A program made the position numbers and the translations under genes. Source: Candidatus Gastranaerophilales bacterium (GTDB lineage: Bacteria > Cyanobacteriota > Vampirovibrionia > Gastranaerophilales > Gastranaerophilaceae). From it: DNA of 64,000 nucleotides. The stretch lies in contig CALUYN010000005.1 of NCBI GenBank assembly GCA_944325025.1, positions 14,478-78,477 of the forward strand, given 5' to 3'. This document shows positions 19,354 to 31,265 of the stretch, one piece after another (the stretch's first letter is position 1; every line of letters starts with the position of its first letter). The notes beneath the pieces were generated by a model that was not told the origin of the DNA, made no database searches, and worked only from the letters and a program-made list of their open reading frames with translations.

Positions 19354-20669
19354 ATGAATAATAATAAATTAACAAGATACGAGAGCTTCGGGGGGGGGGC
19401 ACTTTAGGCTCCGCCGTAGGCAAAGACGCAAAGAGGCATAGATGCAAAGCCAATTTAAAGATACTAGGGTACTATGTCACTAGGGCACTAAGACGTATCG
19501 TAACAGTTTTCCCTCTCTCGGGAGAGGGATTAAGGGAGAGGGTAAATTTAGAAGGCAGAAAGATAAGAAGATATGAGGGTAAGCTATTAACGGTAACTAA
19601 CCCCTTCCTTGCCTTATTAGGTAAGGATAAGAGGAAGTGTAACAACCAATACCCACCCCAACCCTATCTTACTCGCTTTGCGATAAACTTTCCTCTCACA
19701 AACGATACTCAATCGTTTGTTCGGCAGAGTGGCTCGGCCTTTCACCCTCTGCAAAGCGAGCGCTCTCAAATCAGGGAGGGTGCTACATGTCATTGCGAGG
19801 AGGGCTTAAGCCCGACGTCGCAATCGCAAGATAGTGAGATGCTGAAACAAGTTCAGCATGACGAGTTTAGTTTTCTGAAACGCACTTATCGTCTTAAAAA
19901 TAAACTCTCTTCACGTTTCACTCTTCACTCTTTACTTAAAAAGAAAGCTGCCTTCACCCTCGCCGAAGGTGCTACGCACGTAGCCCACTCTCACAATATC
20001 CGTCGAGTTGCATTTACCTTGGCGGAGGTTCTCATCACCCTCGGTATAATCGGTGTTGTTGCTGCCATGACAATTCCGACTCTAATAAACAAGTATCAGA
20101 TGAAAGTATTTGAAACAGCGTTTAAAAAACAGTATTCAGCTGTTCAGTCTGCAATAGATATGCAGTTTTTAAATAACGGGGTATCTGATTGTTATATGTA
20201 CTGGCAGAGAGATCTTAATGCTTACGGAGCCGAAACATCTCAATGTTATGAATTATATTCAGAAATTATTAAATATATGAATTTATTCAAAATAGATTAT
20301 TCTATTAGAGATAGTTACGCCAGAAAAGCTCAAGTACAGGCAAACGGCGGGAAATTTGTCAATAGCTCTGTAGCTTACGATTCTTATATAAACACAAGTT
20401 GGGCTTATGCTTCAAATAACGGAGCAGTTTTTTTAATCACTATGTTTTCTCCTGTTGTAATAATAGATGTAAACGGAGAAAAAGGTCCTAATAAATGGGG
20501 CTATGATGTATTCTTTCTTGTATTGTCCAATCATGACGGCAATTTGAACAGAATTCTCTTGACGGATGAATTAGCAACTATTGTAGAAAAAGGCGGTCGT
20601 TTACCGAGAAATATTTTGATAAACAAGGAAAAAACAGAGGACAGTGATTTTACAATATTCTGGAATTAG
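19354..20669 (+). CDS. Pilin-like protein (class III signal), frameshifted at a G10 tract; putative phase-variable gene A
   Basis: SD AAAGGAG + ATG 19354; G10 at 19390-19399; the current frame stops at 19405-19407. One more G gives a continuous 438-aa ORF that includes the track ORF 19839-20669 with AFTLAEVLITLGIIGVVAAMTIP. Confidence 0.8.
19390..19399 (+). repeat. G10 homopolymer tract
   Basis: Ten consecutive G inside the start of the reading frame. Confidence 0.9.
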
Positions 20670-28087: not shown

Positions 28088-28494
28088 AACTTTTTATTTT
28101 ATCTTTTGTGGTATTTTTATCTTTTGCATTGCAGGTCAGAGCAGAAGACAGCCTGCTTTTGAGTAATTTGATTACTCCGCAGAATGTTAACTTTAATATT
28201 TGTACAAGAACTTATATTTTGCCGCAGGATAAGCTGTTTTATATGGCAATAGCAAGTGCAAATGCAAATAATTTTGACGTCGAGGAAATCCAATCTAAAA
28301 CGGGTTATATTTTATTTACTGCCGTTAATAAACAGTATCTTGCAAGTGTTGTTAAGGTGGATGACAAGCATTCTATGCTCAAGATTACTCCTACAAATAA
28401 CAATTACTTTTTCCCGCCGGGAGTTGTATTGAACTTTTTCAGATACATAGATTTGTACGGCGCAACTCCTCTTGTCAATGTTCCGAAAGTTTAA
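28072..28494 (+). CDS. Hypothetical exported protein
   Basis: N-terminal signal-like sequence ending VRA; overlaps the polA end. Confidence 0.7.
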   Translation: MERTIKLFILSFVVFLSFALQVRAEDSLLLSNLITPQNVNFNICTRTYILPQDKLFYMAIASANANNFDVEEIQSKTGYILFTAVNKQYLASVVKVDDKHSMLKITPTNNNYFFPPGVVLNFFRYIDLYGATPLVNVPKV

Positions 28495-29303
28495 TTATCT
28501 AATACTTTGTGAGCTTCGTTTACTATCCCATCAATATCAAAATTTTCCGGTTCGGTTTGTTCTGTTGAAAGCCATACAAGATATTCAATATTGCCGGAAG
28601 GACCTTTGATAGATGAATAAGTCAAGCCTTTGATTGAATAGCCGAGGCTTTTGGCAAATTTAAGAACGTTTTCAATAACTTCTTTGTGGACTTTTTTATC
28701 TCTTACAACGCCGCCTTTTTCAACTTTTTCTTTACCTGCTTCAAATTGCGGTTTTATAAGACAAATCATTTCATGAAAACCAGGATTAAGAAGTTTTTTT
28801 AAATTTTCAAGAACTTTTGTAAGAGAAATAAAAGATAAGTCGCTGACAAGTAAATCTGCAACGGGTTCGTTATCTTTATAAATGTCAGAAAATTGGCATA
28901 TTTTAAGGTTTGTTCTTTCTATTGTTTTTACACGGTTGTCAGAACGTATTTTCCAGTCCAACTGTCCGTATCCGACATCAACAGCGTATACAAATTTGGC
29001 ACCGTTTTGCAACAGACAGTCTGTAAATCCTCCGGTTGAAGCTCCTGCATCAAAACAAATTCTATTTTCTACACAAAAATAAAATGCATCAAGAGCTTTT
29101 TTCAGCTTAAAACCTCCGCGGGAAACATAAGGCATTGATTTAACTACAATATCGTATTCTTTTGAAGGATTTATTTGAAATCCTGCTTTTGTAATGTATT
29201 CATCATTGATTTTTACATGTCCTGCAAGAATAGCGGCTGAAGCCTTGCTTTTGGTTTCAAAATAGCCTAAATCTGTGAGATATTTGTCCAAACGTTCTTT
29301 CAT
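28491..29303 (-). CDS. tlyA: TlyA family rRNA 2'-O-methyltransferase
   Basis: S4 domain (KERLD), YVSRGGFKL, DAGASTGGFTD, DLSFISL, LIKPQFE. Confidence 0.95.
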   Translation of the reverse strand: MKERLDKYLTDLGYFETKSKASAAILAGHVKINDEYITKAGFQINPSKEYDIVVKSMPYVSRGGFKLKKALDAFYFCVENRICFDAGASTGGFTDCLLQNGAKFVYAVDVGYGQLDWKIRSDNRVKTIERTNLKICQFSDIYKDNEPVADLLVSDLSFISLTKVLENLKKLLNPGFHEMICLIKPQFEAGKEKVEKGGVVRDKKVHKEVIENVLKFAKSLGYSIKGLTYSSIKGPSGNIEYLVWLSTEQTEPENFDIDGIVNEAHKVLDN

Positions 29304-29341
29304 AAGAAAAGATTATCAAACATAAAACATAAAATCAAATT

Positions 29342-30441
29342 TTACCATGGATAGTCGTCTTTAATTTGCCAACCGTCAAGCATAATAAGTTTAGTACAGT
29401 ACAAATTTTCATATTTTTCCCCGTTTCCGGACATACAGTATGATTTTAATCTATCTCTGTCTGTATCAGGCCCCAAAGCCTCCAATTTCATTTTATTTAC
29501 TCCATCAAACTGAAATGCAAAAAAGTCTCTGCCTAAAATATTGGGCCCCTTTTTCCCATTTATGTCAACAAAAATAAGAGGATAAGTGTAAACAGATGTA
29601 CTGCCATTATATAACATAAATAAAGTGACTCCATTTGTTAATACTAATATATATGAAGGAGTAAACATATACTCTCTTCCATCTCTGGTCTTTGGATATT
29701 TATACCCTGCATATTCTATATTACTTGTCAATATTGGTTTTGTTAGCAGCTTTAGATAAGGAATAAGATATGTGTCAGCAAAAGATTTAATTAATTCTTT
29801 CGGCTGAGTCGGGTCATTCTGGTTCGGGGTTGAAGCTGCCATCCCCCAACTTGAAATATCTCCATAATCTGTCTGAGCATGTACTATCGCCTGTGATAAA
29901 ATGCTATATGTTTGTTCTAATCTTTTTGCCGCAATTTGTTTTTGGTACTTTACACTCATTCCGGGAATAGTAAGAGCTGCAACTACACCGATTATGCCGA
30001 AGGTGATAAGAACTTCCGCCAAGGTAAATGCGGCTTTACGAATATTGTGAGAGTGAGCTACGTGCGTAGCACCTTCCGCCAAGGTAAATGCCGCTAGTTT
30101 TTTTAGTGAAGAGTGAAGGGTGAAACGTGAAGAGAGTTTATTTTTAAGGCGATAAGACGATAAGACGTTAGGACGATAAGTCAGTTTCAGAGAATAAATG
30201 TCATCCTGAACGTCGGATTGACATCTGTATTTCAGCATCTCACTATCTTGTGATTGCGGATCAGCTGCGCTGTCCGCAATGACGAAAACAATAGAACCCT
30301 CAGGATTACATGACAAATACTGACATGAATTGTTTAACATGTCAGTGTGCGTAGTACACCCGCAATAACAATTTTTTAAATGTGTCGGGTCAAGCGGCAC
30401 GCTTGGGGGGGGGCAATTCTCAGCTTTTTATCTCTTTCCAT
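29342..30441 (-). CDS. Pilin-like protein, frameshifted at a C9 tract; putative phase-variable gene B
   Basis: SD AAAGGAG (30455-30449) + ATG 30441; C9 on the coding strand (G at 30405-30413); the current frame stops at 30378-30376. One more C joins it to the 352-aa track ORF (366 aa total) with AFTLAEVLITFGIIGVVAALTIP. Confidence 0.8.
30405..30413 (-). repeat. C9 homopolymer tract (coding strand)
   Basis: Nine consecutive G on the plus strand, beginning at codon 10 after the ATG. Confidence 0.9.
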
Positions 30442-30509
30442 AATTAAACTCCTTTATGTTTATCTACTTTTTATTATTGTTATTATTTTTTGTATTTTTG
30501 TCAAGAGTT

Positions 30510-31265
30510 TTAAATTTTGAATATTAGTTCTGATGTCTGAGCTGTTATTCTTATAACTTCCTCTAAAGTTATTCTGCGTAGTTTTGCGATTTCTTCAGCA
30601 ACAAATTTTACATATGCGGGCTGATTTTCCTGCCCGCGGTAAGGAACAGGTGTCAGGTATGGAGCATCCGTTTCAAGTAGTATGTGTTCAAGCGCAACTG
30701 CCTGTACAACTTCTTTCATCTTTACTGCGTTTTTAAATGTTACTACCCCGCCTATCCCGAGATACCAGCCTTCTTTTATACATTCTTTTGCAAATTCAAC
30801 GCTGCCTGAAAAGCAGTGCATAACAACTTTTGAGCCATTGTTGTATTCTTTTAAAATATCAAATGTATCTTTGTGTGCATCTCTATCATGGACGTCAATT
30901 GGAAGATTTAATTCGTTTGCAAGTTTAATCTGTTTTATAAAGATTTCTTTTTGCAAATCGTTAAAGCTTTTATCCCAGTAATAATCAAGCCCGACTTCTC
31001 CAATTGCAACAATTTTTTTATTTTGGGCAAGATTTTTTATTTCATTAATAAGTTTGTCATCCCAATCTTTTGCATCAGACGGGTGAACACCGAGCATCCC
31101 GTATACATTGTCATATTTATTAATGAGTTTCATAATTCCTTCAAAATCTTTAGGATTTGCTGCAGGAACTATTAGTTTATCCACGCCGTTTTCGTTTGCA
31201 TTTTTCAGAACATCTTCGACTGTAATGCCTTCTATCATATTTATGTGTGTATGTGTGTCTATCAT
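30510..31265 (-). CDS. tatD: TatD family deoxyribonuclease
   Basis: IDTHTH, GVHP, IGEVGLD, VHDR, MHCFSG, LETDAPYL. Confidence 0.93.
   Translation of the reverse strand: MIDTHTHINMIEGITVEDVLKNANENGVDKLIVPAANPKDFEGIMKLINKYDNVYGMLGVHPSDAKDWDDKLINEIKNLAQNKKIVAIGEVGLDYYWDKSFNDLQKEIFIKQIKLANELNLPIDVHDRDAHKDTFDILKEYNNGSKVVMHCFSGSVEFAKECIKEGWYLGIGGVVTFKNAVKMKEVVQAVALEHILLETDAPYLTPVPYRGQENQPAYVKFVAEEIAKLRRITLEEVIRITAQTSELIFKI

What the first reader, a model, noticed from the sequence alone, without database searches (positions are those of the whole stretch)
29342..30455. Pilin-like gene B independently shows the same switch with a C9 tract
Seen: SD AAAGGAG, 7 nt, ATG, then MERDKKLRIAPPQACRLTRHI* with C9. 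With C10 the frame continues SVPLDPTH... into the pilin (366 aa, 138-aa leader). Same architecture as gene A, but with the opposite base and an unrelated N-terminal sequence; both need +1. Two independent instances make coincidence unlikely.
Basis: partly seen in the sequence, partly recalled or inferred. Interest (0 to 1): 0.8.

Follow-up and report, generated by a model that had tools for sequence, protein, structure and literature searches.

The report
Poly-C frame switch in pilin leader
A run of nine C's just after the start codon keeps a pilus-subunit-like gene of an uncultured chicken-gut bacterium (Gastranaerophilales) out of frame; it is one of about 35 such genes in this genome, a slippage-type on/off design known from pathogens that I found no report of in this lineage.

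Summary
On the minus strand, SD AAAGGAG, 7 nt and ATG open a 21-codon ORF through a C9 tract. One more C would fuse it to a 366-aa prepilin-like protein.

It is not an independent second case.
- The 1.76-Mb genome has 63 G/C tracts of 8 or more; 44 are exactly 10.
- About 35 of 47 pilin-like genes carry one about 10 codons after SD+ATG. About 28 need +1 nt and about 8 are in frame.
- Their leaders hold 8 stops in the pilin frame, against 264-369 in the other frames.
- Sampled same-genus species carry 0-100 G10 tracts; other genera of the order carry 0-3.

Gene B uses C and gene A uses G because the genes lie on opposite strands. The G-run sits on the G-rich DNA strand in 53 of 56 tracts.

Under-calling is excluded: long non-pilin genes are in frame at G10.

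At a paralog this genome has G11 (ON) and another sample has G10 (OFF), with matching flanks. Gene B shows C9, C10+GC or C12 in about 20 samples, always OFF.

Best reading: slipped-strand phase variation with OFF as the default (0.72). RNA-level slippage is not excluded. No raw reads were available.

The parts
30476..30504 (-). Promoter-like site, TTGACA-17 nt-AACAAT, directly after the tatD stop codon
   Evidence: 10 of 12 matches, the best site in the region. This is a consensus match only.
30449..30455 (-). Shine-Dalgarno AAAGGAG, 7 nt before the ATG
   Evidence: Nearly all tract-gated paralogs show the same SD+ATG arrangement.
30376..30441 (-). 21-codon ORF read in the present (OFF) state: MERDKKLRIAPPQACRLTRHI plus stop
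   Evidence: The MxxKKLRIAPPP head is shared with 5 other C-type paralogs and with orthologs in other species.
30405..30413 (-). C9 homopolymer on the coding strand (G9 on the + strand): the frame gate
   Evidence: Alleles in other samples are C10+GC (12 ENA assemblies and 5 Logan runs) and C12 (2 runs).
30029..30403 (-). 125-codon leader in the pilin frame, reachable from the ATG only if the tract gains 1 nt
   Evidence: It has 0 stops in this frame against 12 and 8 in the other two. None of its in-frame ATG/GTG/TTG codons has an SD.
30067..30320 (.). Multi-copy repeat modules inside the leader: octamers CTTATCGT-like, heptamers TCTTCAC-like, and the block around ATG 30238
   Evidence: contig depth is 10-50 times that of the flanks in four metagenomes. 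The same modules appear in the leaders of paralogs.
30057..30088 (-). First FTLAE copy, without a hydrophobic helix (30088-30074), followed by the palindrome GCTACGCACGTAGC (30070-30057)
   Evidence: Conserved in gene A and in many paralogs.
29342..30028 (-). Mature pilin-like protein, 228 aa plus stop: FTLAEVLITFGIIGVVAALTIP helix, then an alpha/beta head
   Evidence: Pfam N_methyl E=8e-4, below the family cut-off. Weak ComG/GspG matches over the N-terminus. AF2 model with pLDDT 87.7: helix 3-55 plus a five-strand sheet.
19390..19399 (+). G10 tract of sister gene A, on the same chromosomal strand as gene B's G-run
   Evidence: state OFF(+1), with a leader of 204 codons.

Best explanation
Gene B is a contingency locus. 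It encodes a type IV prepilin-like surface protein whose only usable start (SD+ATG at 30441) lies 9 codons upstream of a hypermutable poly-C tract.

In the present state (C9) translation stops after 21 codons. A one-base gain by slipped-strand mispairing during replication would fuse the start to a 138-aa leader and the 228-aa pilin-like body. Because the tract lies in the leader, which the prepilin peptidase would remove, the extra Pro codon would not change the mature protein.

The gene belongs to a family of about 35 such genes in this genome, each with its own promoter, SD, ATG and tract. The commonest tract length (10) is one base short of ON for nearly all of them. Most copies are therefore OFF in most cells and a few are ON, like a lottery of surface variants.

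Shown here: the anatomy, selection to keep the leader open, genus-wide recurrence, length polymorphism at gene B, and a G10/G11 OFF/ON difference at a paralog.

Inferred: that gene B itself switches ON, that switching is reversible within populations, that the leader is cleaved, and what the protein does.
For: Anatomy.

Family census:
- 63 G/C tracts of 8 or more, 44 of them exactly 10.
- About 35 of 47 pilin-like genes are gated: about 28 OFF(+1), about 6 OFF(+2), about 8 ON.
- The roughly 11 ungated pilin genes have ordinary short leaders of the MKKxA|FTL type.

Leader selection:
- 12,723 nt of leader hold 8 stops in the pilin frame, against 369 and 264 in the other forward frames and 209-323 in the reverse frames.
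- 27 of 35 leaders have no in-frame start with an SD.

Not an assembler error:
- A 991-codon AAA/M41 gene, two GT2 genes, an AAA gene and a DUF1796 gene are in frame at G10.
- 12 independent ENA assemblies give C10 at gene B.

Genus-wide: about 974 G10, 122 G9 and 94 G11 tracts in 24 species; 0-3 per genome in other genera of the order. Species G008 has 23 pilin loci OFF(+1) and 6 ON, with the tract inside a normal-length leader, for example MLFKRKAMSAPPPEG|FTLAE.

DNA-level switch at paralog C3:9945: G11 (ON, 418 aa) in this genome against G10 (OFF) in an ENA sample. The flanks match at 200 of 200 nt upstream and 299 of 300 nt downstream.

Gene B alleles: C9, C10+GC and C12.

Other genes with tracts are of the usual phase-variable kinds: glycosyltransferases and YadA-head adhesin-like proteins. 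A prepilin peptidase homologue is present.

Precedents: Campylobacter poly-G genes with modal lengths 9 and 10 (PMC6321876) and Bifidobacterium breve pilus G-tracts (PMC9187656).
Against: - No ON allele of gene B was found. About 20 samples and 6 syntenic species are all in the OFF(+1) frame.
- The three gene B alleles differ by multiples of 3 nt, so none of them changes the frame.
- Heterogeneity within a sample could not be measured. Only contigs were served, and they break at the tract.
- MutS and MutL are present, unlike in Campylobacter.
- The very narrow length peak at 10, the fixed flank and the strand rule are not predicted by plain slippage.
Confidence: 0.72

Rival explanations
1. Programmed recoding at the RNA level. 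The tract length is held fixed, and the frame is corrected in a fraction of molecules either by RNA polymerase slippage (adding one base) or by -1 ribosomal frameshifting on the C/G run. All paralogs would then be expressed at a low level without any DNA change.
For: - The consensus is pinned at 10 and at the same OFF(+1) offset across about 20 samples and 6 species at this locus, while the ORFs stay intact.
- 23 OFF(+1) against 0 OFF(+2) in G008.
- A run of 9-10 could fill the RNA-DNA hybrid, and G GGG GGG or C CCC CCC is formally a slippery heptamer (own knowledge).
Against: - There is no stimulatory RNA structure downstream of the tract in gene A or gene B (z = -0.6 and 0.0).
- The conserved flank TTC-Gn-CA is tied to the DNA strand, not to the mRNA. 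It is the same whether the gene reads G or C, so it is not an RNA signal.
- In-frame G10 sits in long genes that efficient slippage would damage.
- A true DNA difference, G10 against G11, giving OFF against ON exists at a paralog.
Confidence: 0.15
2. A decaying pseudogene: a frameshift mutation in a homopolymer has inactivated the gene and nothing switches.
For: The gene is out of frame in every assembly seen.
Against: - The 353-codon frame downstream of the tract is intact here, and frames of 239-336 codons are intact in 5 other species (the G013 contig ends 34 codons in).
- 35 paralogs keep leaders free of stops.
- SD and ATG are conserved.
- Mature domains diverge fast but stay open (31-52% identity against 73-83% for the four species whose TatD was also matched).
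Confidence: 0.06
3. An assembly or sequencing artefact: systematic under-calling of homopolymers, with a true length one longer.
For: Most pilin loci would become in-frame with one more base.
Against: - Non-pilin genes with G10 would then all be broken, yet they are in frame.
- The same lengths appear in 24 genomes, including one with 760-kb contigs, and in assemblies from several studies.
- G11 is called where it occurs.
- The strand rule cannot be a sequencing artefact.
Confidence: 0.02

Closest known systems
Campylobacter jejuni/coli poly-G contingency genes (PhasomeIt study, PMC6321876)
   Same: - An AT-rich genome of about 1.7 Mb from the chicken gut with tens of intragenic G/C tracts.
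- A peaked length distribution: 9 (53%) and 10 (26%) there.
- Targets are genes for surface structures and glycosyltransferases.
- The switch is a frameshift ON/OFF.
   Different: - Here most tracts sit in one paralogous family, in its cleavable leader.
- The mode is 10 (about 80%), and for that family it is the OFF length.
[quoted passage not shown]
- MutS and MutL are present.
- Whether a strand rule relative to GC skew or a fixed flank exists there is not stated in the text I read.
Bifidobacterium breve UCC2003 sortase-pilus G-tracts (Penno et al. 2022, PMC9187656)
   Same: A gut commensal whose pilus genes are annotated as split by a G10/G11 tract. Replication slippage restores the frame, and the reference state is OFF.
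   Different: - Two loci of sortase-dependent pili, not about 35 type IV prepilin-like genes.
- The tract is inside the gene body, not in a removable leader.
- Slippage there was measured by maximum-depth sequencing; here it was not.
Neisseria pilC1/pilC2 (poly-G in the signal-peptide coding region) and the opa family (CTCTT repeats in the signal peptide; about 11 loci). From my own knowledge, not read here.
   Same: The repeat lies in the part of the ORF that is cut off on export, so a length change alters expression but not the mature protein. For opa, a multigene family has an independent switch per copy.
   Different: - A different export signal (Sec signal peptide against class III prepilin leader).
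- A far smaller family.
- Isolates show mixed ON/OFF states, whereas consensus states here are almost all OFF.

Membership tests
Homopolymer (SSR) phase-variable contingency locus | G/C tract of 8 or more inside the ORF or promoter, placed so that a length change alters expression | tested here: met
   C9 lies 9 codons after the only SD+ATG. One more base fuses the start to a 366-aa ORF.
Homopolymer (SSR) phase-variable contingency locus | Tract length differs between strains or samples at the same locus | tested here: met
   Gene B shows C9, C10+GC and C12. Paralog C3:9945 shows G11 against G10 with identical flanks.
Homopolymer (SSR) phase-variable contingency locus | Both ON and OFF alleles occur at this locus | tested here: not met
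   All of about 20 samples, 8 cluster members and 6 syntenic species are OFF(+1) at gene B. The feature is met for the family: G11 is ON at 3 loci here, and the C3:9945 flip is.
Homopolymer (SSR) phase-variable contingency locus | High-frequency, reversible length heterogeneity within one population | not testable with these tools
   Only Logan contigs were served, no raw reads. The contigs break at the tract.
Type IV pilin / prepilin-type (class III signal peptide) protein | (G/A)|F-x-x-x-E motif with Glu5, followed by about 20 hydrophobic residues | tested here: met
   The sequence reads A|FTLAEVLITFGIIGVVAALTIP. Pfam N_methyl gives E=8e-4 at 19.3 bits, just under the 21.2-bit cut-off. F1, T2, L3 and E5 are invariant in 32 paralogs.
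Type IV pilin / prepilin-type (class III signal peptide) protein | Short basic leader (about 5-30 aa) before the cleavage site | tested here: not met
   The leader would be 138 aa here. It is met in relatives, with about 15 aa in G008, and in the 11 ungated paralogs.
Type IV pilin / prepilin-type (class III signal peptide) protein | Long N-terminal helix plus a beta-sheet head | tested here: inconclusive
   The AF2 model shows helix 3-55 and five strands, pLDDT 87.7. Foldseek against the PDB gives no significant match; the top hit is D. nodosus FimA at E=0.28.
Type IV pilin / prepilin-type (class III signal peptide) protein | Prepilin peptidase (A24) encoded in the genome | tested here: met
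   PF01478 match at 34.3 bits, over the cut-off, at C1:35420-35809.
Programmed -1 ribosomal frameshift site | Slippery heptamer plus a downstream stimulatory structure, conserved on the mRNA strand | tested here: not met
   The run is formally slippery. However, folding gives z = -0.6 and 0.0, and the flank conservation follows the DNA strand, not the mRNA.
Transcriptional slippage site | Transcripts with a length distribution different from the DNA | not testable with these tools
   Only RNA contigs were available. They cover both sides of the tract and end at it.

The most novel reading that the evidence does not exclude
The tracts may not be free-running slippage repeats. They could be a genus-specific cassette with three fixed properties:
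- the G-run is always on the G-rich (presumed leading) strand;
- it is framed by TTC...CA, even inside unrelated genes;
- it is held at exactly 10.

These would be set either by a replication-coupled mechanism that keeps the length at 10, or by RNA-level slippage. Either way, each of 35-100 surface-protein genes would get the same low ON probability, giving a default-OFF lottery built into the removable prepilin leader.
Probability: 0.2. Interest if true: 0.8.

Novelty: new member of a known kind. Interest (0 to 1): 0.55.

Why it matters
Gastranaerophilales are uncultured gut relatives of cyanobacteria, and little is known of how they interact with the host.

A set of 35-100 switchable pilin-like, adhesin-like and glycosyltransferase genes in a genome of under 2 Mb would make them one of the densest users of homopolymer phase variation. 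It would also do so in a commensal rather than a pathogen.

It matters for annotation too. Gene callers start these genes at internal codons (352-, 332- and 312-aa forms of gene B are in public databases) or treat them as frameshifted.

The strand rule and the fixed flank offer a handle on how replication direction shapes the stability of such tracts.

Tried and rejected
- **Read-level length distribution.** Two searches for runs returned only Logan contigs. One read-laying run was lost to a filter. Contigs of G-type loci break at the tract because 31-mers are shared with paralogs. The apparent G10/G11 mixture at C3:9945 in X1 and X2 turned out to be paralog C20:1391.
- **Riboswitch or known RNA in the leader.** Rfam finds only five tRNAs in the whole window.
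- **Frameshift-stimulating structure.** None.
- **Internal start at the conserved ATG 30238.** Rejected: it has no SD, and 13 paralog leaders have no ATG at all.
- **Silent cassettes like Neisseria pilS.** Rejected: every copy has its own promoter-like site, SD and ATG.
- **Loss of mismatch repair as the cause.** Rejected: mutS, mutS2 and mutL are present.
- **Fold match to a solved pilin.** Not significant.
- **Pfam family for the head domain.** Only a weak DUF6613 match (E=0.05), although that family is recorded for most homologues.
- **Literature.** Searches combining Melainabacteria or Gastranaerophilales with phase variation, homopolymer or pilin terms listed no paper on this.

Full report
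**1. Observation**

Gene B lies on the minus strand between tatD (31265-30510) and tlyA (29303-28491).
- A promoter-like TTGACA-17-AACAAT site sits at 30504-30476.
- It is followed by SD AAAGGAG (30455-30449), a 7-nt spacer and ATG (30441-30439).
- The ORF runs through a C9 tract (30413-30405) and ends after 21 codons, reading MERDKKLRIAPPQACRLTRHI*.
- The frame that one extra C would reach is open for 353 codons (SVPLDPTH...DDYPW*) to 29342.
- Runs of G8 or longer occur at only two places in the window, genes A and B. Shuffles expect 0.09.

**2. It is one member of a large system**

The window is C5:14478-78477 of a 1.76-Mb, 35% GC, 43-contig genome. Related records name it Candidatus Gastranaerophilales, and it occurs in chicken-gut and manure metagenomes.

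The genome holds 63 G/C tracts of 8 or more: 4 of length 8, 5 of 9, 44 of 10, 5 of 11 and 2 of 12. Only three tracts have length 7.

There are 47 pilin-like genes with the FTLAEV motif.
- About 11 have ordinary short leaders of the MKKxA|FTL type and no tract.
- About 35 have no start codon near the motif. Instead their frame is open back to a tract that sits about 10 codons after a strong SD+ATG.
- By my frame census, about 28 need +1 nt, about 6 need +2, and about 8 are in frame.

**3. The leader is translated**

- In 12,723 nt of leader from 35 loci, the pilin frame has 8 stops, 7 of them in one atypical locus.
- The other forward frames have 369 and 264 stops, and the reverse frames 209-323.
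- 27 of 35 leaders contain no in-frame ATG/GTG/TTG with an SD, and 13 have no ATG at all.

So the ATG upstream of the tract is the start, and the frame must be joined at the tract.

In gene B the leader is partly built of multi-copy modules. Contig depth over 30067-30320 is 10-50 times that of the flanks. The leader also contains a second FTLAE copy and a palindrome, as in gene A.

In species G008 the leaders are short, and the tract lies inside a normal prepilin leader, for example MLFKRKAMS-APPP-EG|FTLAE. That is probably the basic design. The long leaders of this genome look like later insertions that had to stay in frame.

**4. Not an artefact**

Non-pilin genes with G10 are in frame:
- a 574+417-codon AAA/peptidase M41 gene;
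- an AAA gene;
- two family 2 glycosyltransferases;
- a DUF1796 gene.

Uniform under-calling would break all of them. Twelve independent ENA assemblies from several projects give C10 at gene B. G11 is called where it occurs.

**5. Genus-wide**

- In 24 same-genus species there are roughly 974 G10, 122 G9 and 94 G11 tracts, or 0-100 G10 per genome.
- Twelve other genera of the order have 0-3 per genome.
- In G008, which has contigs of 760 and 422 kb, all 36 loci I read are G10. Of the pilin loci, 23 are OFF(+1), 6 are ON and none is OFF(+2).

**6. Why gene B has C and gene A has G**

Within every contig, all tracts have the G-run on the same strand, and that strand is the one with positive GC skew. 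This holds for 53 of 56 tracts (p = 8e-13). Two of the three exceptions have skew near zero; the third is an atypical T-C9-A tract.

In G008, all tracts on the 760-kb and 422-kb contigs are G on the + strand.

Genes A and B lie on opposite strands of a contig with positive skew, so A reads G and B reads C.

On the G strand the flank is TTC-Gn-CA(C)T. Position -1 is C in 50 of 56 tracts, -2 is T in 49, +1 is C in 51 and +2 is A in 43. The flank is present in the non-pilin genes too. The conservation therefore belongs to the DNA, not to the mRNA or the protein. I have no explanation for the strand rule, the flank or the narrow peak at 10.

**7. Evidence for switching**

*Gene B.*
- Samples X1, X2 and X7 carry the window's C9.
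- X3, X4, X5, X9 and X14, together with 12 ENA assemblies, carry C10 followed by GC. This is the usual context, also seen in species G041 and G013.
- X10 and X27 carry C12.
- All three forms keep the same OFF(+1) frame.
- No 366-aa form exists among the database cluster members, which are 352, 332 and 312 aa, plus two fragments of 166 and 168 aa.

*Syntenic locus.* The tatD-pilin-tlyA arrangement exists only in a sub-clade (G041, G013, G010, G001, G022; G024 has a pilin gene after tatD but no tlyA motif was found). In eight other species tatD abuts tlyA. Where the locus is present it is C10 or G10 and OFF(+1), with intact ORFs except in G013, whose contig ends 34 codons in.

*Paralog C3:9945.* This genome has G11 and a 418-aa in-frame product. 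An ENA sample has G10, which is OFF, with 200 of 200 nt upstream and 299 of 300 nt downstream identical. Two further samples have A+G9. This is a one-base difference between ON and OFF alleles at one locus within the species.

*Other ON alleles.* ON forms of other paralogs also exist in public data, for example P0009.

**8. Mechanism**

The simplest reading is slipped-strand phase variation in which the modal length is the OFF length for the pilin family and the ON length for the other genes.

A metagenome consensus shows only the majority allele. A locus that is ON in a minority of cells will therefore look OFF everywhere. That fits the uniform OFF state at gene B and the narrowness of the length peak, compared with Campylobacter isolates (9: 53%, 10: 26%; PMC6321876).

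RNA polymerase slippage or -1 frameshifting is not excluded, but there is evidence against it:
- there is no downstream structure;
- the flank is bound to the DNA strand;
- in-frame G10 occurs in long genes.

MutS and MutL are present, so the high mutability is not due to loss of mismatch repair.

**9. What the protein is**

- The N-terminus has the prepilin methylation motif with Glu5.
- A peptidase A24 gene is present.
- An AF2 model (pLDDT 87.7) has a 53-residue helix and a five-strand head, but no significant match to a solved structure.
- Homologues carry DUF6613.

I call it type IV pilin-like. The filament it would join and its function are unknown.

**10. Novelty**

Full-text searches listed no paper linking Gastranaerophilales or Melainabacteria with phase variation or homopolymer tracts.

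Earlier notes of this scan describe the same switch in at least 16 other genomes of the order. None mentions the strand rule.

The kind of system is known: Campylobacter, Neisseria pilC and opa, and Bifidobacterium breve pili (PMC9187656). What is new is the lineage, the scale, the placement in the prepilin leader, the default-OFF setting and the strand and flank rules.

Noticed in passing
whole genome; window 19390-19399 and 30405-30413: Strand rule: the G-run of 53 of 56 tracts lies on the strand with positive local GC skew, whatever the gene's orientation. Every contig is uniform, and G008 shows the same over 760 kb.
   Followed up: partly
all tracts, e.g. window 30402-30417: The flank TTC-Gn-CA(C)T on the G strand is conserved even in unrelated genes (GT2, AAA/M41, DUF1796). 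Gene B's own allele has lost the 5' C (T-G9-CA) through a 3-nt deletion relative to the common C10+GC form.
   Followed up: partly
window 30379 and downstream (minus strand), run X10: In one metagenome the same promoter, mini-ORF and tract (as G12) are followed by unrelated sequence from 30379 on. This suggests that the gene body was exchanged at or near the tract.
   Followed up: no
window 28491-31265; loci L076-L095: The pilin gene is an insertion between tatD and tlyA found only in a sub-clade of the genus. In eight species the two housekeeping genes are adjacent. The mature domain diverges much faster (31-52% identity) than TatD (73-83% in four of the same species).
   Followed up: partly
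genome C14:14961, C16:1691, C16:20392, C19:13746: Four tract-gated genes of 560-695 aa combine a prepilin N-terminus with YadA-head repeats and a C-terminal Peptidase_S74 chaperone domain, which is an unusual adhesin-like architecture.
   Followed up: partly
window 30101-30128 and 30151-30182: The leader contains four tandem heptamers (TCTTCAC-like) and four tandem octamers (CTTATCGT-like). These unit lengths would also shift the frame if the copy number changed.
   Followed up: no
genome C4:75662 and C42:2336: Two FtsH-like or AAA paralogs carry an in-frame G10, one of them 574 codons into the gene. They are candidate default-ON phase-variable genes.
   Followed up: no
window 30300-30560, RNA run X15: Metatranscriptome contigs cover both sides of the tract and run upstream past the promoter-like site into tatD, so read-through from tatD is possible. 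Both contigs end at the tract.
   Followed up: no
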